Translations under genes and position numbers: made by a program | In this document: piece by piece, positions 31,071-59,787 of the stretch | Numbering within the stretch: position 1 is the stretch's first letter | Layout: each line of letters begins with the position of its first letter | The notes under the pieces: generated by a model | Databases searched by the model: none | Told to the model about the DNA's origin: nothing | Seen by the model: the letters and a program-made list of their open reading frames with translations, nothing else | Origin: Eimeria praecox | Lineage: Eukaryota | Assembly: GCA_963920595.1 (NCBI GenBank) | Contig: OY986946.1 | Coordinates: forward strand, 8,990,001 to 9,054,000 | DNA: 64,000 nt | Direction: 5' to 3'

Positions 31071-31142
31071 TGTCCGAACCAGGAATCGAACCTGGGTTTA
31101 CACGGCCACAACGTGTTGTCCTAACCTCTAGACGATTCGGAC
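31071..31142 (-). tRNA. tRNA-His(GUG), solo divergent pair, left copy (G57)
   Basis: 72-nt cloverleaf: acceptor GTCCGAA/TTCGGAC, anticodon arm ACACG-TTGTGGC-CGTGT, T arm CCAGG-TTCGATT-CCTGG, A73. T4 lies ~30 nt downstream. Confidence 0.97.
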
Positions 31143-31340
31143 CAGTAGACAAGCGCCCAACCGGGCTGCTCTAGAGCAAAACATTCGAGTCCTGTACTTG
31201 TTGCGAGGCTATTCGTATTTACACATTGCAATTTAACGCAGAGTTAAGCTAAGCAGATTTTGCAAGGAAATATTAGAAGCTGAGCCAAAAGGTTTTCATT
31301 TACTGCACAAGGGTAGTCTGCCGAGGCAGCAGCGCTGCTG

Positions 31341-31412
31341 GTCCGAATCGTCTAGAGGTTAGGACAACACGTTGTGGCCGTGTAAACCCAGGTTCGATTC
31401 CTGGTTCGGACA
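31341..31412 (+). tRNA. tRNA-His(GUG), solo divergent pair, right copy (G57)
   Basis: Identical 72-nt cloverleaf, with a T5 terminator ~8 nt downstream. Confidence 0.97.
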
Positions 31413-40840: not shown

Positions 40841-42156
40841 GCCACATGCCGTTCTTTGGGCATGAGCTTGAGACTCCCCCGGGTTTTATGCGTTTTCTTG
40901 CGTGTACAGCGAGTTCAGGGGTCTGCCCAGCCAGCTTTCCAGTTTGGCTGAAGGTCACAGGAATTACCGCAAGATCCCGTAGTAATGTTTCTGGGTATCG
41001 GTTTCAGTCTCCCGGCACGCACGACGACGCCGTAGCAGGCTCTTGCCCACTTCCTCCGTCTGCACATGTGCGTGGGAGTTGGGCAGCACTCTTCTGCACG
41101 TAGCCAGAGCGGTGCGGGCAGTCATGACGTGCTGAGCTCCACCTTGTACTTTTACTTGGGCATTTAAAGCACTTGTGCTAGCCCGTGCTTCCCTTTTGTC
41201 CGTACCTCACACACTGGCCTTCCTACACTGCATGGCCATCAAGCCTTTCCCGTTGATAGTATACTTGAGGATTGGCACTGCCTCACACAAAATTGAAGGA
41301 CCCAAACACCTCTTGTGGGTGCCTGGACGTTTCCTTGGCCGTCCACCGAGTCTTGTACACACCCTTCAGCAGCGCGGCGATGACCGCATGGTTGAGCCCT
41401 AGCGCAGCAGTGTAGAGACACGAGTGCGATTTCACTGGCCTGCCAACGCAGTTTCCAATGGTGCGGATACGGCTGTACATCCTAGCGTATGGTCCTTTTG
41501 CAGTGTGGATCTGTACCCAAGCAGCGGCCAACATCTTTAAGAGTGAAGAGACCCACAAAGGGCACAGCGTTTTAGGAAGGCATTCACAATAGCTCGCTTA
41601 TCATATCGCATTTATAGTGTAGACGTTTTGGTATCGTTTTGCTTTGCTTGCTGAGGCAGCTCGCCTTTGTCACTGAAGAGTAACGCACTGCAACTTCTCC
41701 TTCCTTTTTCCTTCTTCCTTTTCCATGTGATTTCTTTACGATAGCTTGGAACAGTACCTGCCGGGCAGTTTCTTTGAGTTCGGTTCGGACTTATTTCATG
41801 CCTCATCCTTCGCTTCCGCTGTCTCCCCCATGAACTGCTTCCGTAGGTGTTTGGGTACGTCGCATTGCGGCTGGCGTCTTGAATATACGCGCCAACAAAT
41901 CGATTCTAGCGGGGAATGCGCGACGTCCATGAACCACGGAATAAACCCATGTTTACACGGCTACTGTACATTGACCCAACCTATGCAAACAGAGGGTTCG
42001 AAGCCCTGCGTTTCTGAGACTCTCACTTTTCAAAGCAGGCGCAGTGATATGAAAGCAGTGATCCAAAGCCCTGGGCCCAAACTGAAAAGGTGGGCTGGGT
42101 TCCCTCCAGATTAAGCAGTTACAGGAGAGAGGAACAACGGTTTTTTCGTTAGAACG

Positions 42157-42228
42157 TATCCCAACCAGGAATTGAACCTGGGTTTACACGGCCACAACGT
42201 GTTGTCCTAACCTCTAGACGATTCGGAC
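42157..42228 (-). pseudogene. Degenerate tRNA-His(GUG) at the array edge
   Basis: The 3' acceptor strand reads TTGGGAT instead of TTCGGAC, giving a G1.U72 wobble and a G5-G68 mismatch. Confidence 0.75.
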
Positions 42229-42475
42229 CAGTGGCCCACCAGCACAGCCCAAGCTGCGTGGCGCCACAAGCAAGCAGTCCGCTGCGGCGAGTAGGGCCAG
42301 GCGTGGATTGCACACAGTAGACGGAGAGGGCTGTTGTACGGAGGCAAACAGACGTGAGACGGTGTGTGTTGAAGACGCATTTGGCAACAGCATGCGTGCA
42401 AGGATGGGGTCCAACTGTACTCGGGAAGATAGCAAGGTGTCTGGAAGGCGTGTGTGGTGAGGGGTGTGACTGTTG

Positions 42476-42547
42476 GTCCGAATCGTCTAGAGGTTAGGAC
42501 AACACGTTGTGGCCGTGTAAACCCAGGTTCAATTCCTGGTTCGGACA
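42476..42547 (+). tRNA. tRNA-His(GUG), array copy (A57)
   Basis: 72-nt cloverleaf GTCCGAATCG...GTG...GGTTCAATTCCTGGTTCGGACA. Confidence 0.93.
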
Positions 42548-42568
42548 CATTGGCGCGAGGCGAAACCG

Positions 42569-42574
42569 TTTTTT
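42569..42574 (+). terminator. Pol III oligo-T terminator (T6) of the plus-strand array tRNA, recurring every 862 bp
   Basis: TTTTTT lies 21 nt after A73. Confidence 0.85.
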
Positions 42575-43018
42575 GCATTCCTCCTTGTCTCACTGGTGTG
42601 TGCAGTGTGGGCCAAACCACTGGCCGGTCCAGACCACTGCGCTCGACGTCAAGAGGTGCAGTCTTATGCAGACAGGCGTCTCTGGCATTGTTTCTTTTGC
42701 ACCGATTGTAATGGCGATAGGTTTGACGAGATTGTGCATTGGATTGGTTGTGATGGCTTTAGTGGAATTTGTGTGAGGCTTAGAGGGGACAGCGGAGTTT
42801 TGTGTGCATGGCTTGCTGGTGCACTTGGGAGAGGGTAGTGGGGGGGCTTTGAAGAGGCGAAGAGTACCGAATCTGCTTTATTTGCATGCTTTGTGTATGG
42901 GTATGTTTCACACATGTGTATAAGGTATGTATTGAGGGATGTGGGAATGCGTTTTCGTGTTAGTAGGTTTTACGTTGGTGTGGTAAGAGACAGAACGTTG
43001 CAGAGGGAGGGGGACAAG

Positions 43019-43090
43019 TGTCCGAACCAGGAATTGAACCTGGGTTTACACGGCCACAACGTGTTGTCCTAACCTCTAGACGATTCGGAC
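43019..43090 (-). tRNA. tRNA-His(GUG), array copy
   Basis: Same cloverleaf, inverted. Confidence 0.93.
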
Positions 43091-43337
43091 CAGTGGCCCA
43101 CCAGCACAGCCCAAGCTGCGTGGCGCCACAAGCAAGCAGTCCGCTGCGGCGAGTAGGGCCAGGCGTGGATTGCACACAGTAGACGGAGAGGGCTGTTGTA
43201 CGGAGGCAAACAGACGTGAGACGGTGTGTGTTGAAGACGCATTTGGCAACAGCATGCGTGCAAGGATGGGGTCCAACTGTACTCGGGAAGATAGCAAGGT
43301 GTCTGGAAGGCGTGTGTGGTGAGGGGTGTGACCGTTG

Positions 43338-43409
43338 GTCCGAATCGTCTAGAGGTTAGGACAACACGTTGTGGCCGTGTAAACCCAGGTTCAATTCCTG
43401 GTTCGGACA
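43338..43409 (+). tRNA. tRNA-His(GUG), array copy
   Basis: Same cloverleaf. Confidence 0.93.
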
Positions 43410-43880
43410 CATTGGCGAGAGGGGAAACCGTTTTTTGCATCCCTCCTTGTCTCACTGGTGTGTGCAGTGTGGGCCAAACCACTGGCCGGTCCAGACCACT
43501 GCGCTCGACGTCAAGAGGTGCAGTCTTATGCAGACAGGCGTCTCTGGCATTGTTTCTTTTGCACCGATTGTAATGGCGATAGGTTTGACGAGATTGTGCA
43601 TTGGATTGGTTGTGATGGCTTTAGTGGAATTTGTGTGAGGCTTAGAGGGGACAGCGGAGTTTTGTGTGCATGGCTTGCTGGTGCACTTGGGAGAGGGTAG
43701 TGGGGGGGCTTTGAAGAGGCGAAGAGTACCGAATCTGCTTTATTTGCATGCTTTGTGTATGGGTATGTTTCACACATGTGTATAAGGTATGTATTGAGGG
43801 ATGTGGGAATGCGTTTTAGTGTTAGAAGGTTTTAAGTTGATGTGGTAAGAGACAGAACGTTGCAGAGGGAGGGGGACAAG

Positions 43881-43952
43881 TGTCCGAACCAGGAATTGAA
43901 CCTGGGTTTACACGGCCACAACGTGTTGTCCTAACCTCTAGACGATTCGGAC
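43881..43952 (-). tRNA. tRNA-His(GUG), array copy
   Basis: Same cloverleaf. Confidence 0.93.
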
Positions 43953-44199
43953 CAGTGGCCCACCAGCACAGCCCCAGCTGCGTGGCGCCACAAGCAAGCA
44001 GTCCGCTGCGGCGAGTAGGGCCAGGCGTGGATTGCACACAGTAGACGGAGAGGGCTGTTGTACGGAGGCAAGCAGACGTGAGACGGTGTGTGTTAAAGAC
44101 GCATTTGGCAACAGCATGCGTGCAAGGATGGGGTCCAACTGTACTCGGGAAGATAGCAAGGTGTCTGGAAGGCGTGTGTGGTGAGGGGTGTGACTGTTG

Positions 44200-44271
44200 G
44201 TCCGAATCGTCTAGAGGTTAGGACAACACGTTGTGGCCGTGTAAACCCAGGTTCAATTCCTGGTTCGGACA
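44200..44271 (+). tRNA. tRNA-His(GUG), array copy
   Basis: Same cloverleaf. Confidence 0.93.
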
Positions 44272-44742
44272 CATTGGCGCGAGGCGAAACCGTTTTTTGC
44301 ATTCCTCCTTGTCTCACTGGTGTGTGCAGTGTGGGCCAAACCACTGGCCGGTCCAGACCACTGCGCTCGACGTCAAGAGGTGCAGTCTTATGCAGACAGG
44401 CGTCTCTGGCATTGTTTCTTTTGCACCGATTGTAATGGCGATAGGTTTGACGAGATTGTGCATTGGATTGGTTGTGATGGCTTTAGTGGAATTTGTGTGA
44501 GGCTTAGAGGGGACAGCGGAGTTTTGTGTGCATGGCTTGCTGGTGCACTTGGGAGAGGGTAGTGGGGGGGCTTTGAAGAGGCGAAGAGTACCAAATCTGC
44601 TTTATTTGCATGCTTTGTGTATGGGTATGTTTCACACATGTGTATAAGGTATGTATTGAGGGATGTGGGAATGCGTTTTAGTGTTAGTAGGTTTTAAGTT
44701 GGTGTGGTAAGAGACAGAACGTTGCAGAGGGAGGGGGACAAG

Positions 44743-44814
44743 TGTCCGAACCAGGAATTGAACCTGGGTTTACACGGCCACAACGTGTTGTCCTAACCTC
44801 TAGACGATTCGGAC
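44743..44814 (-). tRNA. tRNA-His(GUG), array copy
   Basis: Same cloverleaf. Confidence 0.93.
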
Positions 44815-45061
44815 CAGTGGCCCACCAGCACAGCCCAAGCTGCGTGGCGCCACAAGCAAGCAGTCCGCTGCGGCGAGTAGGGCCAGGCGTGGATTGCACA
44901 CAGTAGACGGAGAGGGCTGTTGTACGGAGGCAAACAGACGTGAGACGGTGTGTGTTGAAGACGCATTTGGCAACAGCATGCGTGCAAGGATGGGGTCCAA
45001 CTGTACTCGGGAAGATAGCAAGGTGTCTGGAAGGCGTGTGTGGTGAGGGGTGTGACTGTTG

Positions 45062-45133
45062 GTCCGAATCGTCTAGAGGTTAGGACAACACGTTGTGGCC
45101 GTGTAAACCCAGGTTCAATTCCTGGTTCGGACA
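45062..45133 (+). tRNA. tRNA-His(GUG), array copy
   Basis: Same cloverleaf. Confidence 0.93.
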
Positions 45134-45604
45134 CATTGGCGAGAGGGGAAACCGTTTTTTGCATCCCTCCTTGTCTCACTGGTGTGTGCAGTGTGGGCCA
45201 AACCACTGGCCGGTCCAGACCACTGCGCTCGACGTCAAGAGGTGCAGTCTTATGCAGACAGGCGTCTCTGGCATTGTTTCTTTTGCACCGATTGTAATGG
45301 CGATAGGTTTGACGAGATTGTGCATTGGATTGGTTGTGATGGCTTTAGTGGAATTTGTGTGAGGCTTAGAGGGGACAGCGGAGTTTTGTGTGCATGGCTT
45401 GCTGGTGCACTTGGGAGAGGGTAGTGGGGGGGCTTTGAAGAGGCGAAGAGTACCGAATCTGCTTTATTTGCATGCTTTGTGTATGGGTATGTTTCACACA
45501 TGTGTATAAGGTATGTATTGAGGGATGTGGGAATGCGTTTTAGTGTTAGAAGGTTTTAAGTTGATGTGGTAAGAGACAGAACGTTGCAGAGGGAGGGGGA
45601 CAAG

Positions 45605-45676
45605 TGTCCGAACCAGGAATTGAACCTGGGTTTACACGGCCACAACGTGTTGTCCTAACCTCTAGACGATTCGGAC
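45605..45676 (-). tRNA. tRNA-His(GUG), array copy
   Basis: Same cloverleaf. Confidence 0.93.
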
Positions 45677-45923
45677 CAGTGGCCCACCAGCACAGCCCAA
45701 GCTGCGTGGCGCCACAAGCAAGCAGTCCGCTGCGGCGAGTAGGGCCAGGCGTGGATTGCACACAGTAGACGGAGAGGGCTGTTGTACGGAGGCAAACAGA
45801 CGTGAGACGGTGTGTGTTGAAGACGCATTTGGCAACAGCATGCGTGCAAGGATGGGGTCCAACTGTACTCGGGAAGATAGCAAGGTGTCTGGAAGGCGTG
45901 TGTGGTGAGGGGTGTGACTGTTG

Positions 45924-45995
45924 GTCCGAATCGTCTAGAGGTTAGGACAACACGTTGTGGCCGTGTAAACCCAGGTTCAATTCCTGGTTCGGACA
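45924..45995 (+). tRNA. tRNA-His(GUG), array copy
   Basis: Same cloverleaf. Confidence 0.93.
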
Positions 45996-46466
45996 CATTG
46001 GCGCGAGGCGAAACCGTTTTTTGCATTCCTCCTTGTCTCACTGGTGTGTGCAGTGTGGGCCAAACCACTGGCCGGTCCAGACCACTGCGCTCGACGTCAA
46101 GAGGTGCAGTCTTATGCAGACAGGCGTCTCTGGCATTGTTTCTTTTGCACCGATTGTAATGGCGATAGGTTTGACGAGATTGTGCATTGGATTGGTTGTG
46201 ATGGCTTTAGTGGAATTTGTGTGAGGCTTAGAGGGGACAGCGGAGTTTTGTGTGCATGGCTTGCTGGTGCACTTGGGAGAGGGTAGTGGGGGGGCTTTGA
46301 AGTGGCGAAGAGTACCAAATCTGCTTTATTTGCATGCTTTGTGTATGGGTATGTTTCACACATGTGTATAAGGTATGTATTGAGGGATGTGGGAATGCGT
46401 TTTAGTGTTAGAAGGTTTTAAGTTGATGTGGTAAGAGACAGAACGTTGCAGAGGGAGGGGGACAAG

Positions 46467-46538
46467 TGTCCGAACCAGGAATTGAACCTGGGTTTACACG
46501 GCCACAACGTGTTGTCCTAACCTCTAGACGATTCGGAC
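46467..46538 (-). tRNA. tRNA-His(GUG), array copy
   Basis: Same cloverleaf. Confidence 0.93.
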
Positions 46539-46785
46539 CAGTGGCCCACCAGCACAGCCCCAGCTGCGTGGCGCCACAAGCAAGCAGTCCGCTGCGGCGA
46601 GTAGGGCCAGGCGTGGATTGCACACAGTAGACGGAGAGGGCTGTTGTACGGAGGCAAGCAGACGTGAGACGGTGTGTGTTGAAGACGCATTTGGCAACAG
46701 CATGCGTGCAAGGATGGGGTCCAACTGTACTCGGGAAGATAGCAAGGTGTCTGGAAGGCGTGTGTGGTGAGGGGTGTGACTGTTG

Positions 46786-46857
46786 GTCCGAATCGTCTAG
46801 AGGTTAGGACAACACGTTGTGGCCGTGTAAACCCAGGTTCAATTCCTGGTTCGGACA
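46786..46857 (+). tRNA. tRNA-His(GUG), array copy
   Basis: Same cloverleaf. Confidence 0.93.
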
Positions 46858-47328
46858 CATTGGCGAGAGGGGAAACCGTTTTTTGCATCCCTCCTTGTCT
46901 CACTGGTGTGTGCAGTGTGGGCCAAACCACTGGCCGGTCCAGACCACTGCGCTCGACGTCAAGAGGTGCAGTCTTATGCAGACAGGCGTCTCTGGCATTG
47001 TTTCTTTTGCACCGATTGTAATGGCGATAGGTTTGACGAGATTGTGCATTGGATTGGTTGTGATGGCTTTAGTGGAATTTGTGTGAGGCTTAGAGGGGAC
47101 AGCGGAGTTTTGTGTGCATGGCTTGCTGGTGCACTTGGGAGAGGGTAGTGGGGGGGCTTTGAAGAGGCGAAGAGTACCGAATCTGCTTTATTTGCATGCT
47201 TTGTGTATGGGTATGTTTCACACATGTGTATAAGGTATGTATTGAGGGATGTGGGAATGCGTTTTAGTGTTAGAAGGTTTTAAGTTGATGTGGTAAGAGA
47301 CAGAACGTTGCAGAGGGAGGGGGACAAG

Positions 47329-47400
47329 TGTCCGAACCAGGAATTGAACCTGGGTTTACACGGCCACAACGTGTTGTCCTAACCTCTAGACGATTCGGAC
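47329..47400 (-). tRNA. tRNA-His(GUG), array copy
   Basis: Same cloverleaf. Confidence 0.93.
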
Positions 47401-47647
47401 CAGTGGCCCACCAGCACAGCCCAAGCTGCGTGGCGCCACAAGCAAGCAGTCCGCTGCGGCGAGTAGGGCCAGGCGTGGATTGCACACAGTAGATCGAGAG
47501 GGCTGTTGTACGGAGGCAAACAGACGTGAGACGGTGTGTGTTGAAGACGCATTTGGCAACAGCATGCGTGCAAGGATGGGGTCCAACTGTACTCGGGAAG
47601 ATAGCAAGGTGTCTGGAAGGCGTGTGTGGTGAGGGGTGTGACTGTTG

Positions 47648-47719
47648 GTCCGAATCGTCTAGAGGTTAGGACAACACGTTGTGGCCGTGTAAACCCAGGT
47701 TCAATTCCTGGTTCGGACA
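47648..47719 (+). tRNA. tRNA-His(GUG), array copy
   Basis: Same cloverleaf. Confidence 0.93.
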
Positions 47720-48190
47720 CATTGGCGCGAGGCGAAACCGTTTTTTGCATTCCTCCTTGTCTCACTGGTGTGTGCAGTGTGGGCCAAACCACTGGCCGGT
47801 CCAGACCACTGCGCTCGACGTCAAGAGGTGCAGTCTTATGCAGACAGGCGTCTCTGGCATTGTTTCTTTTGCACCGATTGTAATGGCGATAGGTTTGACG
47901 AGATTGTGCATTGGATTGGTTGTGATGGCTTTAGTGGAATTTGTGTGAGGCTTAGAGGGGACAGCGGAGTTTTGTGTGCATGGCTTGCTGGTGCACTTGG
48001 GAGAGGGTAGTGGGGGGGCTTTGAAGTGGCGAAGAGTACCAAATCTGCTTTATTTGCATGCTTTGTGTATGGGTATGTTTCACACATGTGTATAAGGTAT
48101 GTATTGAGGGATGTGGGAATGCGTTTTAGTGTTAGAAGGTTTTAAGTTGATGTGGTAAGAGACAGAACGTTGCAGAGGGAGGGGGACAAG

Positions 48191-48262
48191 TGTCCGAACC
48201 AGGAATTGAACCTGGGTTTACACGGCCACAACGTGTTGTCCTAACCTCTAGACGATTCGGAC
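48191..48262 (-). tRNA. tRNA-His(GUG), array copy
   Basis: Same cloverleaf. Confidence 0.93.
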
Positions 48263-48509
48263 CAGTGGCCCACCAGCACAGCCCCAGCTGCGTGGCGCCA
48301 CAAGCAAGCAGTCCGCTGCGGCGAGTAGGGCCAGGCGTGGATTGCACACAGTAGACGGAGAGGGCTGTTGTACGGAGGCAAGCAGACGTGAGACGGTGTG
48401 TGTTAAAGACGCATTTGGCAACAGCATGCGTGCAAGGATGGGGTCCAACTGTACTCGGGAAGATAGCAAGGTGTCTGGAAGGCGTGTGTGGTGAGGGGTG
48501 TGACTGTTG

Positions 48510-48581
48510 GTCCGAATCGTCTAGAGGTTAGGACAACACGTTGTGGCCGTGTAAACCCAGGTTCAATTCCTGGTTCGGACA
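48510..48581 (+). tRNA. tRNA-His(GUG), array copy
   Basis: Same cloverleaf. Confidence 0.93.
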
Positions 48582-49052
48582 CATTGGCGCGAGGCGAAAC
48601 CGTTTTTTGCATTCCTCCTTGTCTCACTGGTGTGTGCAGTGTGGGCCAAACCACTGGGCGGTCCAGACCACTGCGCTCCACGTCAAGAGGTGCAGTCTTA
48701 TGCAGACAGGCGTCTCTGGCATTGTTTCTTTTGCACCGATTGTAATGGCGATAGGTTTGACGAGATTGTGCATTGGATTGGTTGTGATGGCTTTAGTGGA
48801 ATTTGTGTGAGGCTTAGAGGGGACAGCGGAGTTTTGTGTGCATGGCTTGCTGGTGCACTTGGGAGAGGGTAGTGGGGGGGCTTTGAAGAGGCGAAGAGTA
48901 CCGAATCTGCTTTATTTGCATGCTTTGTGTATGGGTATGTTTCACACATGTGTATAAGGTATGTATTGAGGGATGTGGGAATGCGTTTTAGTGTTAGAAG
49001 GTTTTAAGTTGATGTGGTAAGAGACAGAACGTTGCAGAGGGAGGGGGACAAG

Positions 49053-49124
49053 TGTCCGAACCAGGAATTGAACCTGGGTTTACACGGCCACAACGTGTTG
49101 TCCTAACCTCTAGACGATTCGGAC
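49053..49124 (-). tRNA. tRNA-His(GUG), array copy
   Basis: Same cloverleaf. Confidence 0.93.
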
Positions 49125-49371
49125 CAGTGGCCCACCAGCACAGCCCCAGCTGCGTGGCGCCACAAGCAAGCAGTCCGCTGCGGCGAGTAGGGCCAGGCGT
49201 GGATTGCACACAGTAGACGGAGAGGGCTGTTGTACGGAGGCAAACAGACGTGAGACGGTGTGTGTTAAAGACGCATTTGGCAACAGCATGCGTGCAAGGA
49301 TGGGGTCCAACTGTACTCGGGAAGATAGCAAGGTGTCTGGAAGGCGTGTGTGGTGAGGGGTGTGACTGTTG

Positions 49372-49443
49372 GTCCGAATCGTCTAGAGGTTAGGACAACA
49401 CGTTGTGGCCGTGTAAACCCAGGTTCAATTCCTGGTTCGGACA
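49372..49443 (+). tRNA. tRNA-His(GUG), array copy
   Basis: Same cloverleaf. Confidence 0.93.
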
Positions 49444-49914
49444 CATTGGCGCGAGGCGAAACCGTTTTTTGCATTCCTCCTTGTCTCACTGGTGTGTGCA
49501 GTGTGGGCCAAACCACTGGCCGGTCCAGACCACTGCGCTCGACGTCAAGAGGTGCAGTCTTATGCAGACAGGCGTCTCTGGCATTGTTTCTTTTGCACCG
49601 ATTGTAATGGCGATAGGTTTGACGAGATTGTGCATTGGATTGGTTGTGATGGCTTTAGTGGAATTTGTGTGAGGCTTAGAGGGGACAGCGGAGTTTTGTG
49701 TGCATGGCTTGCTGGTGCACTTGGGAGAGGGTAGTGGGGGGGCTTTGAAGAGGCGAAGAGTACCAAATCTGCTTTATGTGCATGCTTTGTGTATGGGTAT
49801 GTTTCACACATGTGTATAAGGTATGTATTGAGGGATGTGGGAATGCGTTTTAGTGTTAGTAGGTTTTAAGTTGGTGTGGTAAGAGACAGAACGTTGCAGA
49901 GGGAGGGGGACAAG

Positions 49915-49986
49915 TGTCCGAACCAGGAATTGAACCTGGGTTTACACGGCCACAACGTGTTGTCCTAACCTCTAGACGATTCGGAC
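49915..49986 (-). tRNA. tRNA-His(GUG), array copy
   Basis: Same cloverleaf. Confidence 0.93.
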
Positions 49987-50233
49987 CAGTGGCCCACCAG
50001 CACAGCCCAAGCTGCGTGGCGCCACAAGCAAGCAGTCCGCTGCGGCGAGTAGGGCCAGGCGTGGATTGCACACAGTAGACGGAGAGGGCTGTTGTACGGA
50101 GGCAAACAGACGTGAGACGGTGTGTGTTGAAGACGCATTTGGCAACAGCATGCGTGCAAGGATGGGGTCCAACTGTACTCGGGAAGATAGCAAGGTGTCT
50201 GGAAGGCGTGTGTGGTGAGGGGTGTGACCGTTG

Positions 50234-50305
50234 GTCCGAATCGTCTAGAGGTTAGGACAACACGTTGTGGCCGTGTAAACCCAGGTTCAATTCCTGGTTC
50301 GGACA
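50234..50305 (+). tRNA. tRNA-His(GUG), array copy
   Basis: Same cloverleaf. Confidence 0.93.
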
Positions 50306-50776
50306 CATTGGCGAGAGGGGAAACCGTTTTTTGCATCCCTCCTTGTCTCACTGGTGTGTGCAGTGTGGGCCAAACCACTGGCCGGTCCAGACCACTGCGC
50401 TCGACGTCAAGAGGTGCAGTCTTATGCAGACAGGCGTCTCTGGCATTGTTTCTTTTGCACCGATTGTAATGGCGATAGGTTTGACGAGATTGTGCATTGG
50501 ATTGGTTGTGATGGCTTTAGTGGAATTTGTGTGAGGCTTAGAGGGGACAGCGGAGTTTTGTGTGCATGGCTTGCTGGTGCACTTGGGAGAGGGTAGTGGG
50601 GGGGCTTTGAAGAGGCGAAGAGTACCGAATCTGCTTTATTTGCATGCTTTGTGTATGGGTATGTTTCACACATGTGTATAAGGTATGTATTGAGGGATGT
50701 GGGAATGCGTTTTAGTGTTAGAAGGTTTTAAGTTGATGTGGTAAGAGACAGAACGTTGCAGAGGGAGGGGGACAAG

Positions 50777-50848
50777 TGTCCGAACCAGGAATTGAACCTG
50801 GGTTTACACGGCCACAACGTGTTGTCCTAACCTCTAGACGATTCGGAC
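50777..50848 (-). tRNA. tRNA-His(GUG), array copy
   Basis: Same cloverleaf. Confidence 0.93.
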
Positions 50849-51095
50849 CAGTGGCCCACCAGCACAGCCCCAGCTGCGTGGCGCCACAAGCAAGCAGTCC
50901 GCTGCGGCGAGTAGGGCCAGGCGTGGATTGCACACAGTAGACGGAGAGGGCTGTTGTACGGAGGCAAGCAGACGTGAGACGGTGTGTGTTAAAGACGCAT
51001 TTGGCAACAGCATGCGTGCAAGGATGGGGTCCAACTGTACTCGGGAAGATAGCAAGGTGTCTGGAAGGCGTGTGTGGTGAGGGGTGTGACTGTTG

Positions 51096-51167
51096 GTCCG
51101 AATCGTCTAGAGGTTAGGACAACACGTTGTGGCCGTGTAAACCCAGGTTCAATTCCTGGTTCGGACA
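51096..51167 (+). tRNA. tRNA-His(GUG), array copy
   Basis: Same cloverleaf. Confidence 0.93.
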
Positions 51168-51638
51168 CATTGGCGCGAGGCGAAACCGTTTTTTGCATTC
51201 CTCCTTGTCTCACTGGTGTGTGCAGTGTGGGCCAAACCACTGGCCGGTCCAGACCACTGCGCTCGACGTCAAGAGGTGCAGTCTTATGCAGACAGGCGTC
51301 TCTGGCATTGTTTCTTTTGCACCGATTGTAATGGCGATAGGTTTGACGAGATTGTGCATTGGATTGGTTGTGATGGCTTTAGTGGAATTTGTGTGAGGCT
51401 TAGAGGGGACAGCGGAGTTTTGTGTGCATGGCTTGCTGGTGCACTTGGGAGAGGGTAGTGGGGGGGCTTTGAAGAGGCGAAGAGTACCAAATCTGCTTTA
51501 TTTGCATGCTTTGTGTATGGGTATGTTTCACACATGTGTATAAGGTATGTATTGAGGGATGTGGGAATGCGTTTTAGTGTTAGTAGGTTTTAAGTTGGTG
51601 TGGTAAGAGACAGAACGTTGCAGAGGGAGGGGGACAAG

Positions 51639-51710
51639 TGTCCGAACCAGGAATTGAACCTGGGTTTACACGGCCACAACGTGTTGTCCTAACCTCTAGA
51701 CGATTCGGAC
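51639..51710 (-). tRNA. tRNA-His(GUG), array copy
   Basis: Same cloverleaf. Confidence 0.93.
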
Positions 51711-51957
51711 CAGTGGCCCACCAGCACAGCCCAAGCTGCGTGGCGCCACAAGCAAGCAGTCCGCTGCGGCGAGTAGGGCCAGGCGTGGATTGCACACAGT
51801 AGACGGAGAGGGCTGTTGTACGGAGGCAAACAGACGTGAGACGGTGTGTGTTGAAGACGCATTTGGCAACAGCATGCGTGCAAGGATGGGGTCCAACTGT
51901 ACTCGGGAAGATAGCAAGGTGTCTGGAAGGCGTGTGTGGTGAGGGGTGTGACTGTTG

Positions 51958-52029
51958 GTCCGAATCGTCTAGAGGTTAGGACAACACGTTGTGGCCGTGT
52001 AAACCCAGGTTCAATTCCTGGTTCGGACA
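51958..52029 (+). tRNA. tRNA-His(GUG), array copy
   Basis: Same cloverleaf. Confidence 0.93.
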
Positions 52030-52500
52030 CATTGGCGAGAGGGGAAACCGTTTTTTGCATCCCTCCTTGTCTCACTGGTGTGTGCAGTGTGGGCCAAACC
52101 ACTGGCCGGTCCAGACCACTGCGCTCGACGTCAAGAGGTGCAGTCTTATGCAGACAGGCGTCTCTGGCATTGTTTCTTTTGCACCGATTGTAATGGCGAT
52201 AGGTTTGACGAGATTGTGCATTGGATTGGTTGTGATGGCTTTAGTGGAATTTGTGTGAGGCTTAGAGGGGACAGCGGAGTTTTGTGTGCATGGCTTGCTG
52301 GTGCACTTGGGAGAGGGTAGTGGGGGGGCTTTGAAGAGGCGAAGAGTACCGAATCTGCTTTATTTGCATGCTTTGTGTATGGGTATGTTTCACACATGTG
52401 TATAAGGTATGTATTGAGGGATGTGGGAATGCGTTTTAGTGTTAGAAGGTTTTAAGTTGATGTGGTAAGAGACAGAACGTTGCAGAGGGAGGGGGACAAG

Positions 52501-52572
52501 TGTCCGAACCAGGAATTGAACCTGGGTTTACACGGCCACAACGTGTTGTCCTAACCTCTAGACGATTCGGAC
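52501..52572 (-). tRNA. tRNA-His(GUG), array copy
   Basis: Same cloverleaf. Confidence 0.93.
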
Positions 52573-52819
52573 CAGTGGCCCACCAGCACAGCCCAAGCTG
52601 CGTGGCGCCACAAGCAAGCAGTCCGCTGCGGCGAGTAGGGCCAGGCGTGGATTGCACACAGTAGACGGAGAGGGCTGTTGTACGGAGGCAAACAGACGTG
52701 AGACGGTGTGTGTTGAAGACGCATTTGGCAACAGCATGCGTGCAAGGATGGGGTCCAACTGTACTCGGGAAGATAGCAAGGTGTCTGGAAGGCGTGTGTG
52801 GTGAGGGGTGTGACTGTTG

Positions 52820-52891
52820 GTCCGAATCGTCTAGAGGTTAGGACAACACGTTGTGGCCGTGTAAACCCAGGTTCAATTCCTGGTTCGGACA
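52820..52891 (+). tRNA. tRNA-His(GUG), array copy
   Basis: Same cloverleaf. Confidence 0.93.
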
Positions 52892-53362
52892 CATTGGCGC
52901 GAGGCGAAACCGTTTTTTGCATTCCTCCTTGTCTCACTGGTGTGTGCAGTGTGGGCCAAACCACTGGCCGGTCCAGACCACTGCGCTCGACGTCAAGAGG
53001 TGCAGTCTTATGCAGACAGGCGTCTCTGGCATTGTTTCTTTTGCACCGATTGTAATGGCGATAGGTTTGACGAGATTGTGCATTGGATTGGTTGTGATGG
53101 CTTTAGTGGAATTTGTGTGAGGCTTAGAGGGGACAGCGGAGTTTTGTGTGCATGGCTTGCTGGTGCACTTGGGAGAGGGTAGTGGGGGGGCTTTGAAGTG
53201 GCGAAGAGTACCAAATCTGCTTTATTTGCATGCTTTGTGTATGGGTATGTTTCACACATGTGTATAAGGTATGTATTGAGGGATGTGGGAATGCGTTTTA
53301 GTGTTAGAAGGTTTTAAGTTGATGTGGTAAGAGACAGAACGTTGCAGAGGGAGGGGGACAAG

Positions 53363-53434
53363 TGTCCGAACCAGGAATTGAACCTGGGTTTACACGGCCA
53401 CAACGTGTTGTCCTAACCTCTAGACGATTCGGAC
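53363..53434 (-). tRNA. tRNA-His(GUG), array copy
   Basis: Same cloverleaf. Confidence 0.93.
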
Positions 53435-53681
53435 CAGTGGCCCACCAGCACAGCCCCAGCTGCGTGGCGCCACAAGCAAGCAGTCCGCTGCGGCGAGTAG
53501 GGCCAGGCGTGGATTGCACACAGTAGACGGAGAGGGCTGTTGTACGGAGGCAAGCAGACGTGAGACGGTGTGTGTTGAAGACGCATTTGGCAACAGCATG
53601 CGTGCAAGGATGGGGTCCAACTGTACTCGGGAAGATAGCAAGGTGTCTGGAAGGCGTGTGTGGTGAGGGGTGTGACTGTTG

Positions 53682-53753
53682 GTCCGAATCGTCTAGAGGT
53701 TAGGACAACACGTTGTGGCCGTGTAAACCCAGGTTCAATTCCTGGTTCGGACA
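53682..53753 (+). tRNA. tRNA-His(GUG), array copy
   Basis: Same cloverleaf. Confidence 0.93.
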
Positions 53754-54224
53754 CATTGGCGCGAGGCGAAACCGTTTTTTGCATTCCTCCTTGTCTCACT
53801 GGTGTGTGCAGTGTGGGCCAAACCACTGGCCGGTCCAGACCACTGCGCTCGACGTCAAGAGGTGCAGTCTTATGCAGACAGGCGTCTCTGGCATTGTTTC
53901 TTTTGCACCGATTGTAATGGCGATAGGTTTGACGAGATTGTGCATTGGATTGGTTGTGATGGCTTTAGTGGAATTTGTGTGAGGCTTAGAGGGGACAGCG
54001 GAGTTTTGTGTGCATGGCTTGCTGGTGCACTTGGGAGAGGGTAGTGGGGGGGCTTTGAAGAGGCGAAGAGTACCGAATCTGCTTTATGTGCATGCTTTGT
54101 GTATGGGTATGTTTCACACATGTGTATAAGGTATGTATTGAGGGATGTGGGAATGCGTTTTAGTGTTAGAAGGTTTTAAGTTGATGTGGTAAGAGACAGA
54201 ACGTTGCAGAGGGAGGGGGACAAG

Positions 54225-54296
54225 TGTCCGAACCAGGAATTGAACCTGGGTTTACACGGCCACAACGTGTTGTCCTAACCTCTAGACGATTCGGAC
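54225..54296 (-). tRNA. tRNA-His(GUG), array copy
   Basis: Same cloverleaf. Confidence 0.93.
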
Positions 54297-54543
54297 CAGT
54301 GGCCCACCAGCACAGCCCCAGCTGCGTGGCGCCACAAGCAAGCAGTCCGCTGCGGCGAGTAGGGCCAGGCGTGGATTGCACACAGTAGACGGAGAGGGCT
54401 GTTGTACGGAGGCAAACAGACGTGAGACGGTGTGTGTTAAAGACGCATTTGGCAACAGCATGCGTGCAAGGATGGGGTCCAACTGTACTCGGGAAGATAG
54501 CAAGGTGTCTGGAAGGCGTGTGTGGTGAGGGGTGTGACTGTTG

Positions 54544-54615
54544 GTCCGAATCGTCTAGAGGTTAGGACAACACGTTGTGGCCGTGTAAACCCAGGTTCAA
54601 TTCCTGGTTCGGACA
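54544..54615 (+). tRNA. tRNA-His(GUG), array copy
   Basis: Same cloverleaf. Confidence 0.93.
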
Positions 54616-55086
54616 CATTGGCGCGAGGCGAAACCGTTTTTTGCATTCCTCCTTGTCTCACTGGTGTGTGCAGTGTGGGCCAAACCACTGGCCGGTCCAG
54701 ACCACTGCGCTCGACGTCAAGAGGTGCAGTCTTATGCAGACAGGCGTCTCTGGCATTGTTTCTTTTGCACCGATTGTAATGGCGATAGGTTTGACGAGAT
54801 TGTGCATTGGATTGGTTGTGATGGCTTTAGTGGAATTTGTGTGAGGCTTAGAGGGGACAGCGGAGTTTTGTGTGCATGGCTTGCTGGTGCACTTGGGAGA
54901 GGGTAGTGGGGGGGCTTTGAAGAGGCGAAGAGTACCGAATCTGCTTTATTTGCATGCTTTGTGTATGGGTATGTTTCACACATGTGTATAAGGTATGTAT
55001 TGAGGGATGTGGGAATGCGTTTTAGTGTTAGTAGGTTTTACGTTGGTGTGGTAAGAGACAGAACGTTGCAGAGGGAGGGGGACAAG

Positions 55087-55158
55087 TGTCCGAACCAGGA
55101 ATTGAACCTGGGTTTACACGGCCACAACGTGCTGTCCTAACCTCTAGACGATTCGGAC
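55087..55158 (-). tRNA. tRNA-His(GUG), array copy, A27G variant
   Basis: Cloverleaf with a G27.U43 wobble. Confidence 0.9.
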
Positions 55159-55405
55159 CAGTGGCCCACCAGCACAGCCCCAGCTGCGTGGCGCCACAAG
55201 CAAGCAGTCCGCTGCGGCGAGTAGGGCCAGGCGTGGATTGCACACAGTAGACGGAGAGGGCTGTTGTACGGAGGCAAGCAGACGTGAGACGGTGTGTGTT
55301 GAAGACGCATTTGGCAACAGCATGCGTGCAAGGATGGGGTCCAACTGTACTCGGGAAGATAGCAAGGTGTCTGGAAGGCGTGTGTGGTGAGGGGTGTGAC
55401 TGTTG

Positions 55406-55477
55406 GTCCGAATCGTCTAGAGGTTAGGACAGCACGTTGTGGCCGTGTAAACCCAGGTTCAATTCCTGGTTCGGACA
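55406..55477 (+). tRNA. tRNA-His(GUG), array copy, A27G variant
   Basis: Cloverleaf with a G27.U43 wobble (G at 55432). Confidence 0.9.
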
Positions 55478-55948
55478 CATTGGCGAGAGGGGAAACCGTT
55501 TTTTGCATTCCTCCTTGTCTCACTGGTGTGTGCAGTGTGGGCCAAACCACTGGCCGGTCCAGACCACTGCGCTCGACGTCAAGAGGTGCAGTCTTATGCA
55601 GACAGGCGTCTCTGGCATTGTTTCTTTTGCACCGATTGTAATGGCGATAGGTTTGACGAGATTGTGCATTGGATTGGTTGTGATGGCTTTAGTGGAATTT
55701 GTGTGAGGCTTAGAGGGGACAGCGGAGTTTTGTGTGCATGGCTTGCTGGTGCACTTGGGAGAGGGTAGTGGGGGGGCTTTGAAGAGGCGAAGAGTACCGA
55801 ATCTGCTTTATTTGCATGCTTTGTGTATGGGTATGTTTCACACATGTGTATAAGGTATGTATTGAGGGATGTGGGAATGCGTTTTAGTGTTAGTAGGTTT
55901 TACGTTGGTGTGGTAAGAGACAGAACGTTGCAGAGGGAGGGGGACAAG

Positions 55949-56020
55949 TGTCCGAACCAGGAATTGAACCTGGGTTTACACGGCCACAACGTGTTGTCCT
56001 AACCTCTAGACGATTCGGAC
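55949..56020 (-). tRNA. tRNA-His(GUG), array copy
   Basis: Same cloverleaf. Confidence 0.93.
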
Positions 56021-56267
56021 CAGTGGCCCACCAGCACAGCCCCAGCTGCGTGGCGCCACAAGCAAGCAGTCCGCTGCGGCGAGTAGGACCAGGCGTGGAT
56101 TGCACACAGTAGATCGAGAGGGCTGTTGTACGGAGGCAAGCAGACGTGAGACGGTGTGTGTTGAAGACGCACTTGGCAACAGCATGCGTGCAAGGATGGG
56201 GTCCAACTGTACTCGGGAAGATGGCAAGGTGTCTGGAAAACGTGGGTGGTGAGGGGTGTGACTGTTG

Positions 56268-56339
56268 GTCCGAATCGTCTAGAGGTTAGGACAACACGTT
56301 GTGGCCGTGTAAACCCAGGTTCAATTCCTGGTTCGGACA
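56268..56339 (+). tRNA. tRNA-His(GUG), array copy
   Basis: Same cloverleaf. Confidence 0.93.
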
Positions 56340-56810
56340 CATTGGCGAGAGGGGAAACCGTTTTTTGCATTCCTCCTTGTCTCACTGGTGTGTGCAGTGT
56401 GGGCCAAACCACTGGCCGGTCCAGACCACTGCGCTCGACGTCAAGAGGTGCAGTCTTATGCAGACAGGCGTCTCTGGCATTGTTTCTTTTGCACCGATTG
56501 TAATGGCGATAGGTTTGACGAGATTGTGCATTGGATTGGTTGTGATGGCTTTAGTGGAATTTGTGTGAGGCTTAGAGGGGACAGCGGAGTTTTGTGTGCA
56601 TGGCTTGCTGGTGCACTTGGGAGAGGGTAGTGGGGGGGCTTTGAAGTGGCGAAGAGTACCGAATCTGCTTTATTTGCATGCTTTGTGTATGGGTATGTTT
56701 CACACATGTGTATAAGGTATGTATTGAGGGATGTGGGAATGCGTTTTAGTGTTAGAAGGTTTTAAGTTGATGTGGTAAGAGACAGAACGTTGCAGAGGGA
56801 GGGGGACAAG

Positions 56811-56882
56811 TGTCCGAACCAGGAATTGAACCTGGGTTTACACGGCCACAACGTGCTGTCCTAACCTCTAGACGATTCGGAC
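56811..56882 (-). tRNA. tRNA-His(GUG), array copy, A27G variant
   Basis: Cloverleaf with a G27.U43 wobble. Confidence 0.9.
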
Positions 56883-57129
56883 CAGTGGCCCACCAGCACA
56901 GCCCAAGCTGCGTGGCGCCACAAGCAAGCAGTCCGCTGCGGCGAGTAGGGCCAGGCGTGGATTGCACACAGTAGACGGAGAGGGCTGTTGTACGGAGGCA
57001 AGCAGACGTGAGACGGTGTGTGTTGAAGACGCATTTGGCAACAGCATGCGTGCAAGGATGGGGTCCAACTGTACTCGGGAAGATAGCAAGGTGTCTGGAA
57101 GGCGTGTGTGGTGAGGGGTGTGACTGTTG

Positions 57130-57201
57130 GTCCGAATCGTCTAGAGGTTAGGACAACACGTTGTGGCCGTGTAAACCCAGGTTCAATTCCTGGTTCGGAC
57201 A
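57130..57201 (+). tRNA. tRNA-His(GUG), array copy
   Basis: Same cloverleaf. Confidence 0.93.
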
Positions 57202-57672
57202 CATTGGCGCGAGGCGAAACCGTTTTTTGCATTCCTCCTTGTCTCACTGGTGTGTGCAGTGTGGGCCAAACCACTGGCCGGTCCAGACCACTGCGCTCGA
57301 CGTCAAGAGGTGCAGTCTTATGCAGACAGGCGTCTCTGGCATTGTTTCTTTTGCACCGATTGTAATGGCGATAGGTTTGACGAGATTGTGCATTGGATTG
57401 GTTGTGATGGCTTTAGTGGAATTTGTGTGAGGCTTAGAGGGGACAGCGGAGTTTTGTGTGCATGGCTTGCTGGTGCACTTGGGAGAGGGTAGTGGGGGGG
57501 CTTTGAAGAGGCGAAGAGTACCGAATCTGCTTTATTTGCATGCTTTGTGTATGGGTATGTTTCACACATGTGTATAAGGTATGTATTGAGGGATGTGGGA
57601 ATGCGTTTTAGTGTTAGTAGGTTTTACGTTGGTGTGGTAAGAGACAGAACGTTGCAGAGGGAGGGGGACAAG

Positions 57673-57744
57673 TGTCCGAACCAGGAATTGAACCTGGGTT
57701 TACACGGCCACAACGTGTTGTCCTAACCTCTAGACGATTCGGAC
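57673..57744 (-). tRNA. tRNA-His(GUG), array copy
   Basis: Same cloverleaf. Confidence 0.93.
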
Positions 57745-57991
57745 CAGTGGCCCACCAGCACAGCCCAAGCTGCGTGGCGCCACAAGCAAGCAGTCCGCTG
57801 CGGCGAGTAGGACCAGGCGTGGATTGCACACAGTAGATCGAGAGGGCTGTTGTACGGAGGCAAGCAGACGTGAGACGGTGTGTGTTGAAGACGCATTTGG
57901 CAACAGCATGCGTGCAAGGATGGGGTCCAACTGTACTCGGGAAGATGGCAAGGTGTCTGGAAAACGTGGGTGGTGAGGGGTGTGACTGTTG

Positions 57992-58063
57992 GTCCGAATC
58001 GTCTAGAGGTTAGGACAACACGTTGTGGCCGTGTAAACCCAGGTTCAATTCCTGGTTCGGACA
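57992..58063 (+). tRNA. tRNA-His(GUG), array copy
   Basis: Same cloverleaf. Confidence 0.93.
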
Positions 58064-58534
58064 CATTGGCGAGAGGGGAAACCGTTTTTTGCATTCCTCC
58101 TTGTCTCACTGGTGTGTGCAGTGTGGGCCAAACCACTGGCCGGTCCAGACCACTGCGCTCGACGTCAAGAGGTGCAGTCTTATGCAGACAGGCGTCTCTG
58201 GCATTGTTTCTTTTGCACCGATTGTAATGGCGATAGGTTTGACGAGATTGTGCATTGGATTGGTTGTGATGGCTTTAGTGGAATTTGTGTGAGGCTTAGA
58301 GGGGACAGCGGAGTTTTGTGTGCATGGCTTGCTGGTGCACTTGGGAGAGGGTAGTGGGGGGGCTTTGAAGTGGCGAAGAGTACCGAATCTGCTTTATTTG
58401 CATGCTTTGTGTATGGGTATGTTTCACACATGTGTATAAGGTATGTATTGAGGGATGTGGGAATGCGTTTTAGTGTTAGAAGGTTTTAAGTTGATGTGGT
58501 AAGAGACAGAACGTTGCAGAGGGAGGGGGACAAG

Positions 58535-58606
58535 TGTCCGAACCAGGAATTGAACCTGGGTTTACACGGCCACAACGTGCTGTCCTAACCTCTAGACGAT
58601 TCGGAC
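58535..58606 (-). tRNA. tRNA-His(GUG), array copy, A27G variant
   Basis: Cloverleaf with a G27.U43 wobble. Confidence 0.9.
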
Positions 58607-58853
58607 CAGTGGCCCACCAGCACAGCCCCAGCTGCGTGGCGCCACAAGCAAGCAGTCCGCTGCGGCGAGTAGGGCCAGGCGTGGATTGCACACAGTAGAC
58701 GGAGAGGGCTGTTGTACGGAGGCAAGCAGACGTGAGACGGTGTGTGTTGAAGACGCATTTGGCAACAGCATGCGTGCAAGGATGGGGTCCAACTGTACTC
58801 GGGAAGATAGCAAGGTGTCTGGAAGGCGTGTGTGGTGAGGGGTGTGACTGTTG

Positions 58854-58925
58854 GTCCGAATCGTCTAGAGGTTAGGACAACACGTTGTGGCCGTGTAAAC
58901 CCAGGTTCAATTCCTGGTTCGGACA
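58854..58925 (+). tRNA. tRNA-His(GUG), array copy
   Basis: Same cloverleaf. Confidence 0.93.
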
Positions 58926-59396
58926 CATTGGCGCGAGGCGAAACCGTTTTTTGCATTCCTCCTTGTCTCACTGGTGTGTGCAGTGTGGGCCAAACCACTG
59001 GCCGGTCCAGACCACTGCGCTCGACGTCAAGAGGTGCAGTCTTATGCAGACAGGCGTCTCTGGCATTGTTTCTTTTGCACCGATTGTAATGGCGATAGGT
59101 TTGACGAGATTGTGCATTGGATTGGTTGTGATGGCTTTAGTGGAATTTGTGTGAGGCTTAGAGGGGACAGCGGAGTTTTGTGTGCATGGCTTGCTGGTGC
59201 ACTTGGGAGAGGGTAGTGGGGGGGCTTTGAAGAGGCGAAGAGTACCGAATCTGCTTTATTTGCATGCTTTGTGTATGGGTATGTTTCACACATGTGTATA
59301 AGGTATGTATTGAGGGATGTGGGAATGCGTTTTAGTGTTAGTAGGTTTTAAGTTGGTGTGGTAAGAGACAGAACGTTGCAGAGGGAGGGGGACAAG

Positions 59397-59468
59397 TGTC
59401 CGAACCAGGAATTGAACCTGGGTTTACACGGCCACAACGTGTTGTCCTAACCTCTAGACGATTCGGAC
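59397..59468 (-). tRNA. tRNA-His(GUG), array copy
   Basis: Same cloverleaf. Confidence 0.93.
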
Positions 59469-59715
59469 CAGTGGCCCACCAGCACAGCCCAAGCTGCGTG
59501 GCGCCACAAGCAAGCAGTCCGCTGCGGCGAGTAGGGCCAGGCGTGGATTGCACACAGTAGATCGAGAGGGCTGTTGTACGGAGGCAAGCAGACGTGAGAC
59601 GGTGTGTGTTGAAGACGCATTTGGCAACAGCATGCGTGCAAGGATGGGGTCCAACTGTACTCGGGAAGATGGCAAGGTGTCTGGAAAACGTGGGTGGTGA
59701 GGGGTGTGACTGTTG

Positions 59716-59787
59716 GTCCGAATCGTCTAGAGGTTAGGACAACACGTTGTGGCCGTGTAAACCCAGGTTCAATTCCTGGTTCGGACA
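59716..59787 (+). tRNA. tRNA-His(GUG), array copy
   Basis: Same cloverleaf. Confidence 0.93.

What the first reader, a model, noticed from the sequence alone, without database searches (positions are those of the whole stretch)
42476..43090. Terminator asymmetry predicts read-through into antisense tRNA and long hairpin or dsRNA
Seen: the plus-strand tRNA has T6 21 nt downstream, plus further T4 runs. I find no AAAA on the plus strand anywhere in the common unit, so the minus strand has no T4 or longer. Known: Pol III needs at least 4 T residues (5-6 in yeasts) to terminate. Inference: transcripts from the minus-strand copy would cross the 471-nt spacer and the complement of the neighbouring tRNA, forming a ~75-bp perfect hairpin or multi-unit RNA. 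That could be a Dicer/Argonaute substrate or an antisense regulator. Alternatively, these copies are cut out by RNase Z or are silent.
Basis: partly seen in the sequence, partly recalled or inferred. Interest (0 to 1): 0.75.

Follow-up and report, generated by a model that had tools for sequence, protein, structure and literature searches.

The report
Terminator-less tRNA copies in Eimeria array
In a chicken gut parasite (Eimeria praecox), a histidine tRNA gene pair is repeated at least 25 times and every backward-facing copy lacks a stop signal, so it would be read on into its neighbour's mirror image; this is most likely an accident of how the array was copied, and any long RNA is likely cut up and destroyed rather than used.

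Summary
The locus is an 862-bp tandem array (42156 to past the window end; 51 tRNA-His genes) in Eimeria praecox. Plus copies have T6 21 nt downstream. The 25 internal minus copies have no T4 and none of the tested non-canonical Pol III stop motifs in the 471-nt spacer; all 25 cross at least one antisense tRNA before a T4. A read-through RNA is predicted to fold into a perfect 75-bp stem. But design is not supported. The T-poverty is one event copied 25 times and is expected from the spacer's G+T skew (no T4 in 58-74% of shuffles). The stem stops at the tRNA's edges. Shared variants point to conversion between orientations, so identity does not show function. The repeat's left edge lies at the minus tRNA's 3' end. 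A published HMM search found Argonaute but no Dicer in E. praecox. No RNA data were examined, so expression is untested. Verdict: likely a by-product whose read-through RNA is cleaved and degraded (0.5); silent copies 0.25; T-independent stop 0.12; functional small-RNA or antisense hairpin about 0.1.

The parts
42156..64000 (.). Tandem array of 862-bp units, runs off the window; 51 tRNA-His(GTG) genes (25 plus, 26 minus); units 99.0% identical on average, no indels
42476..42547 (+). Plus tRNA-His, intact cloverleaf, encoded G at -1
42569..42574 (+). T6 canonical Pol III terminator of the plus copy, invariant in 25 of 25 units
42548..43018 (.). 471-nt convergent spacer; G+T-rich on plus (G 162, T 143, A 92, C 74); minus strand has only two isolated T3 (+403, +454)
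43019..43090 (-). Minus tRNA-His, identical to the plus copy, no terminator
42474..43092 (.). Perfect inverted repeat, 75-bp arms, 469-nt loop; arms are tRNA positions -2 to +73 only
43091..43337 (.). 247-nt divergent spacer holding both upstream regions; a TGTTT on minus in 12 of 25 units; a T4 on minus in 6 of 25 units
42157..42228 (-). Edge minus copy with two changes in the 3' acceptor strand and a different trailer (T4 at +69); marks the left end of the repeat
41931..41985 (-). Decayed tRNA-His remnant
   Evidence: nhmmer E 0.0015
55086..55478 (.). Divergent neighbours (minus 55086, plus 55406) that share the rare A27G variant; likely conversion across orientations
31071..31412 (.). Single divergent tRNA-His pair with terminators on both copies (T2CT3 at +1 and T4 at +30; T5 at +9); internal control

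Best explanation
The locus is a tandem array of head-to-head tRNA-His pairs in which the minus copies lack a terminator, likely as a by-product of amplification, and any read-through RNA is likely cleaved and degraded rather than used. Shown: array, missing terminator, 75-bp inverted repeat, repeat edge at the minus tRNA's 3' end. Inferred steps: (1) the duplicated unit joined the minus gene's 3' end to the complement of the plus gene's G+T-rich downstream flank, which is T-poor for that reason; (2) conversion between orientations keeps the minus body identical; (3) with internal promoter boxes identical to the plus copy, some minus copies would load Pol III, which would run through the spacer until it meets the plus gene; (4) the long precursor would be cut at the discriminator by RNase Z or removed by the exosome and Rat1-type nucleases, as in yeast; molecules that reach the antisense tRNA first would fold into the stem and be lost as tRNA. 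Working tRNA-His would come mainly from the plus copies and the single pair.
For: Identity with the unit ends at the 3' end of the edge minus tRNA. Spacer GC skew +0.37, AT skew -0.22; lack of T4 is expected from that composition. Both copies of the single pair share one T-loop base and both array orientations share another; the A27G variant is in 3 minus and 1 plus copy, two of them neighbours. The stem does not extend beyond tRNA -2/+73. 3 of 3 other intact contexts have T4-T6 within 30 nt, so the species appears to use the usual signal. Yeast: read-through pre-tRNAs are bound by Rat1, Dis3, Mtr4 and may be cut by RNase Z (PMC4937561, passages); seen only without Rrp6, in one case also Trz1 (10.1101/2021.08.27.457903, section 9 part 1). 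About 9% of human tDNA calls have no T4 within 200 bp (PMC3141230). No RNase III hit for E. praecox (PMC9353057).
Against: No RNA was examined, so steps 3 and 4 rest on yeast and human work. Only 10 of 178 background tiles lack all motifs. The stem is favoured by about 110 kcal/mol, so it could out-run RNase Z. Both tRNA bodies vary less than the spacers (2 of 144 against 26 of 718 columns; Fisher p 0.21), which fits selection on the minus copy but is not significant. The origin story cannot be checked without the array's right end; the minus trailer could be the native flank of a third gene. The Dicer search used predicted proteins of a draft assembly, and its authors allow for incompleteness.
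Confidence: 0.5

Rival explanations
1. The minus copies, or most of the array, are silent: the array is a satellite-like structural element (chromatin barrier, TFIIIC or condensin platform), so the missing terminator has no consequence.
For: 51 or more genes for one anticodon, against 345 tRNAs in the whole E. tenella genome (PMC8515493, passage). Entamoeba arrays are proposed to be largely inactive (PMC2652664, passage); the human 1q23.3 tDNA repeat carries H3K9me3 and H3K4me3 (PMC4041453, passages). The minus upstream region is the least A+T-rich of the contexts (0.31 against 0.38-0.42 at -40 to -15). Decayed copies lie at the edge.
Against: Promoter boxes are identical to the plus copy; the A+T difference is 2-3 bases in 26; no chromatin data.
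Confidence: 0.25
2. Eimeria Pol III stops near the minus tRNA without a T-tract (pause in the C-rich trailer with release by a Sen1-like helicase, or a signal unknown from yeast and human), so the minus copies are ordinary working genes.
For: The minus body is perfect in 22 of 25 internal copies and the other 3 carry only A27G, a wobble-compatible change. Sen1 acts as a fail-safe Pol III terminator in yeast.
Against: T-tracts are reported as necessary for termination (abstract) and an isolated T3 is almost inactive in human extracts. The other three intact contexts use T4-T6. A Sen1 homolog in Eimeria was not tested.
Confidence: 0.12
3. The read-through hairpin is functional: it is diced or otherwise cut into small RNAs that load the Eimeria Argonaute and silence the array or tune tRNA-His, or the released antisense arm traps tRNA-His in trans.
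For: Predicted fold pairs 72 of 72 tRNA nt (-245.0 against -135.6 kcal/mol for local pairs only). 6 of 25 units gained a minus-strand T4 just past the antisense arm, which would give a discrete RNA of roughly 660 nt. E. praecox has an Argonaute (EPH_0024580). Toxoplasma makes Argonaute-bound repeat-derived RNAs and satellite RNAs (PMC2877743, passages).
Against: Any convergent identical pair gives this fold. No excess T-avoidance, no stem extension, spacer fold z +0.9. No Dicer hit in E. praecox. An RNA antisense to an essential tRNA should be costly (inference).
Confidence: 0.1
4. Assembly artefact: the array or the A-run lengths are wrong.
For: No reads were laid on it; no indel in 25 units.
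Against: 20 of 24 full units are distinct, with recurring haplotypes and 4 identical pairs at lag 8. Even if the two A3 sites were A4, the stop would lie at +403 or +454.
Confidence: 0.03

Closest known systems
Entamoeba tRNA gene arrays (PMC2652664, passages)
   Same: Tandem units with tRNA genes, homogenised by concerted evolution, copy number far above need, function unclear.
   Different: Entamoeba histolytica spacers hold short tandem repeats; none are reported inside this array. Here the unit is an inverted pair of one tRNA. The word stem 'terminat' does not occur in that paper.
Human 1q23.3 tDNA tandem repeat (PMC4041453, passages)
   Same: Homogeneous tandem repeat with tRNA genes on both strands.
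   Different: 7.3-kb unit with five tRNA genes; only tRNA-sized transcripts reported; here 862 bp and two identical inverted genes.
E. tenella chromosome 6 tRNA cluster (PMC9131526, one sentence)
   Same: Same genus; tRNA genes clustered with repeated spacers.
   Different: Described only as tRNA genes separated by TGTTGC repeats; isotype, orientation and terminators not given in the passages seen. Orthology not tested.
Human tRNA genes with remote or non-canonical terminators (PMC3141230, parts 2-4 of 7) and yeast read-through pre-tRNAs (PMC4937561; 10.1101/2021.08.27.457903)
   Same: tRNA genes lacking a near T4 exist; read-through is common and is cleared by surveillance.
   Different: Most such human genes have an interrupted T motif within 50 bp; the minus copies here have none in 471 nt and point at an identical gene.
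Toxoplasma rdsRNA and satRNA loci (PMC2877743, passages)
   Same: Coccidian repeats with fold-back potential; Argonaute present in the lineage.
   Different: Toxoplasma has a Dicer; none was found in E. praecox; no small RNA has been shown for this locus.

Membership tests
Canonical Pol III tRNA gene (minus copies) | Intact tRNA fold | tested here: met
   Rfam RF00005 62.2 bits, full model; ARAGORN
Canonical Pol III tRNA gene (minus copies) | Internal A and B boxes | tested here: met
   Sequence identical to the plus copy; the box consensus itself is recalled, not from a call
Canonical Pol III tRNA gene (minus copies) | T4 or longer within 50 nt downstream | tested here: not met
   First T4 at 570 nt or more in 25 of 25 internal copies
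Canonical Pol III tRNA gene (minus copies) | Transcribed and processed to tRNA | not tested
   No RNA data examined
tRNA genes with non-canonical terminators (Orioli type) | T3VT2, T2VT3, T3VT, TVT3 or T2VT2 near the 3' end | tested here: not met
   None in the 471-nt spacer of the scanned unit; first TVT3 at +669
Tandem tRNA gene arrays | Head-to-tail units containing tRNA genes | tested here: met
   862-bp period, 25 units in the window
Tandem tRNA gene arrays | Homogenised units | tested here: met
   99.0% mean identity, shared variants
Entamoeba histolytica-type STR arrays | Short tandem repeats in spacers | tested here: not met
   No TRF row beyond 34973 at score 50
Hairpin endo-siRNA / rdsRNA loci | Long inverted repeat that one transcript could span | tested here: met
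   75-bp perfect stem predicted
Hairpin endo-siRNA / rdsRNA loci | The hairpin RNA and small RNAs from it exist | not tested
   No RNA data examined
Hairpin endo-siRNA / rdsRNA loci | Dicer in the species | not tested
   Not searched here; published HMM search found none in E. praecox, Argonaute present (PMC9353057)
Hairpin endo-siRNA / rdsRNA loci | Stem kept for its own sake (extends beyond, or is constrained apart from, the tRNA) | tested here: not met
   Arms are tRNA -2 to +73; conversion suffices

The most novel reading that the evidence does not exclude
The array is a self-limiting tRNA locus: terminator-less minus copies make a Pol III hairpin RNA with a perfect 75-bp tRNA/anti-tRNA stem that feeds the Eimeria Argonaute, possibly without Dicer, and silences the array or sets tRNA-His levels by stage. 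The T4 gained in 6 units would be a terminator that defines this RNA.
Probability: 0.08. Interest if true: 0.8.

Novelty: new variant of a known kind. Interest (0 to 1): 0.3.

Why it matters
Pol III termination appears little studied in coccidia (own impression; not searched as such), and this array is a natural test: identical genes, one with T6 and one with no signal, 25 times over, told apart by unique leaders and trailers. One strand-specific dataset would show whether Pol III reads through, stops without T, or skips these copies. If the hairpin fed Argonaute it would give a substrate for an Argonaute that seems to have no Dicer partner. If not, it is a large, apparently undescribed tRNA array of modest interest.

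Tried and rejected
No whole genome is held for the window, so the array's right end, the species' other tRNA terminators, and Dicer, Sen1, RNase Z and Thg1 genes were not searched. A metagenome scan with the alignment of the neighbouring peptidase (10 proteins) found no related locus among 590 pattern matches, so there is no cross-species comparison. Misfolding of the minus precursor: acceptor-stem probability is 0.00 with trailers of 50 nt or more at all 5 leader lengths, against 0.82-0.94 for the plus copy, but shuffled flanks do as badly (86 of 150, and 36 of 150 for trailer only), so it is compositional, not designed, and folding of unmodified tRNA is unreliable. Homology of the edge copy's trailer to the plus trailer: 3 of 300 shuffles (one of 17 tests) but 75, 596 and 64 of 2072 background segments under three scorings: inconclusive. 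Decayed tRNAs inside the spacers: not supported (44-293 of 300 shuffles). Array and single-pair divergent spacers: unrelated (237 and 179 of 300). A second structured RNA in the spacer: no Rfam hit other than tRNA at E up to 1 in 22000-44300; minus-strand fold z +0.9. The 183-aa stop-to-stop frame across the unit was not pursued. Earlier scan notes: none found.

Full report
Organism and setting. The window carries CAG, AAACCCT and TA repeats. A reading frame at 30182-30838 matches an Eimeria praecox protein at 100% identity over 86% of the query, with other Eimeria species at 45-51%. ARAGORN finds 53 tRNA-His(GTG) genes: a single divergent pair at 31071-31412 and 51 genes in an 862-bp tandem array from 42156 to the window end. 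Each unit is plus tRNA, 471-nt convergent spacer, minus tRNA, 247-nt divergent spacer. 20 of 24 full units are distinct, mean identity is 99.0%, there are no indels, and 4 unit pairs at lag 8 are identical.

The observation. T6 lies 21 nt after the plus tRNA in 25 of 25 units, with four further T4 runs. No AAAA occurs on the plus strand of the convergent spacer in any of 25 units. Six of 25 units have AAAA at unit position 832, in the divergent spacer. I also scanned one unit for the interrupted T motifs that act as weak terminators for human Pol III (PMC3141230, parts 2-4 of 7 read). The minus strand has none in 471 nt, only isolated T3 at +403 and +454, which that paper found almost inactive. 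A TGTTT follows at +669, past the antisense tRNA; its A-run is present in 12 of 25 units. The first T4 lies 930-13,860 nt away for 16 internal minus copies, 570 nt for 6 and 1,432 nt for 3; all 25 cross at least one antisense tRNA first. The three other intact contexts (array plus, both single-pair genes) have T4-T6 within 30 nt. The inverted repeat is 75 bp, perfect, with a 469-nt loop. A 660-nt read-through RNA folds at -245.0 kcal/mol with 72 of 72 tRNA bases paired to the antisense arm, against -135.6 when only local pairs are allowed.

Is it more than chance? Not as sequence. The spacer is G+T-rich on the plus strand (GC skew +0.37, AT skew -0.22), so its complement is T-poor. No T4 arises in 58% and 74% of 10,000 mono- and dinucleotide shuffles; no motif of any tested kind in 16% and 23%. 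The 25 copies descend from one unit, so n is 1. In yeast, T-tracts downstream of tRNA genes are more frequent in sense than antisense orientation (10.1101/2021.08.27.457903, passage), which is the pattern this spacer shows for the plus gene.

Does the perfect minus copy show function? No. The single pair shares one T-loop base in both orientations and the array shares the other base in both orientations. The A27G variant occurs in minus copies at 55086, 56810 and 58534 and in the plus copy at 55406, the divergent neighbour of 55086. Both facts point to exchange between inverted copies (inference); parallel mutation is possible for a single site. tRNA columns vary less than spacer columns (2 of 144 against 26 of 718), not significantly (p 0.21). 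The stem ends at tRNA positions -2 and +73, so nothing beyond the tRNA is kept complementary.

Origin. The leftmost minus copy matches the unit through the divergent spacer and the tRNA, then breaks off in the 3' acceptor strand (two changes) and has another trailer with T4 at +69. A decayed tRNA-His lies at 41931-41985 (E 0.0015). The repeat's edge is therefore at the minus tRNA's 3' end. I infer that amplification joined that end to the far flank of the plus gene. The alternative, that the trailer is the native flank of a third convergent gene, needs the array's right end. Similarity of the edge trailer to the plus trailer is inconclusive.

Fate of the RNA. No RNA data were examined. From yeast: read-through pre-tRNAs have low steady-state levels and are bound by Nab2, Rat1, Dis3 and Mtr4, and may be cut by RNase Z (PMC4937561, passages); they were detected only without Rrp6, in one case also needing Trz1 depletion, and Sen1 provides fail-safe release (10.1101/2021.08.27.457903, abstract and section 9 part 1). 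Cleavage at the discriminator would separate sense from antisense and prevent the intramolecular stem (inference). A minus polymerase would also meet the plus gene's complexes head-on near +450 (inference). [quoted passage not shown] The authors allow that incomplete genomes may explain this. Toxoplasma does make Argonaute-bound repeat-derived RNAs (PMC2877743, passages), and T. cruzi PIWI binds tRNA fragments (PMC9935688, passages), so the novel reading is not excluded.

Comparison with what is known. Tandem tRNA arrays are known from Entamoeba and human 1q23.3 and are called uncommon elsewhere (PMC2652664, PMC4041453, passages). A tRNA cluster on E. tenella chromosome 6 is mentioned in one sentence (PMC9131526); E. 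tenella has 345 annotated tRNAs (PMC8515493, passage); a repeat survey found 23 apicomplexan repeat models holding intact tRNAs (PMC9141347, passage). About 9% of 675 human tDNA calls have no T4 within 200 bp. Seven searches (listings and abstract starts) showed no description of this array or of Pol III read-through into an antisense tRNA in such an array; the library lacks most subscription papers, one search listed 20 of 289 hits and 15 of 23, and bioRxiv supplements were not seen. It belongs to the tandem tRNA arrays, fails the test for a canonical or Orioli-type terminated gene on the minus strand, and cannot be filed as a hairpin small-RNA locus.

Verdict. Observation confirmed; interpretation partly supported. 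By-product with degraded read-through 0.5; silent or structural 0.25; T-independent stop 0.12; functional hairpin or antisense RNA 0.1; artefact 0.03. Novelty: new variant of a known kind. Interest 0.3, mainly because the locus makes Pol III termination in a coccidian directly testable.

Noticed in passing
window 42475, 43091, 31143, 31340 (position -1 of each tRNA context): All four tRNA-His contexts encode G at -1 with an A discriminator, although their flanks are otherwise unrelated. C. elegans lacks Thg1 and uses an encoded G-1 (PMC4338351, passages). Whether Eimeria has Thg1 was not checked.
   Followed up: partly
window 41931-41985 (-) and 42157-42228 (-): A decayed tRNA-His remnant and an edge copy with a damaged acceptor stem; the cluster is older than the present homogenised unit.
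   Followed up: partly
window 56237, 57961, 59685, 60547, 61409, 63133: Two linked substitutions create AAAA about 30 nt upstream of the plus tRNA in 6 units of the right part of the array; could matter as a minus-strand terminator or for TFIIIB binding, or be neutral.
   Followed up: partly
window 31071-31412: A single divergent tRNA-His pair sits between a pyroglutamyl-peptidase-like gene (PF01470 on P0001) and a Cluap1-domain gene; its spacer is unrelated to the array's.
   Followed up: partly
window 43338-53681: An 8-unit (6,896-bp) higher-order duplication: 4 identical unit pairs at lag 8, suggesting recent unequal crossover.
   Followed up: partly
window 42001-64000: Strong GC skew of +0.24 to +0.33 across the array against near zero elsewhere; might reflect strand-biased mutation or R-loop-prone plus-strand transcription.
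   Followed up: no
window about 41993-42010 (+): A short stem-loop resembling a tRNA T-arm/B box, seen by eye; no Rfam hit.
   Followed up: no
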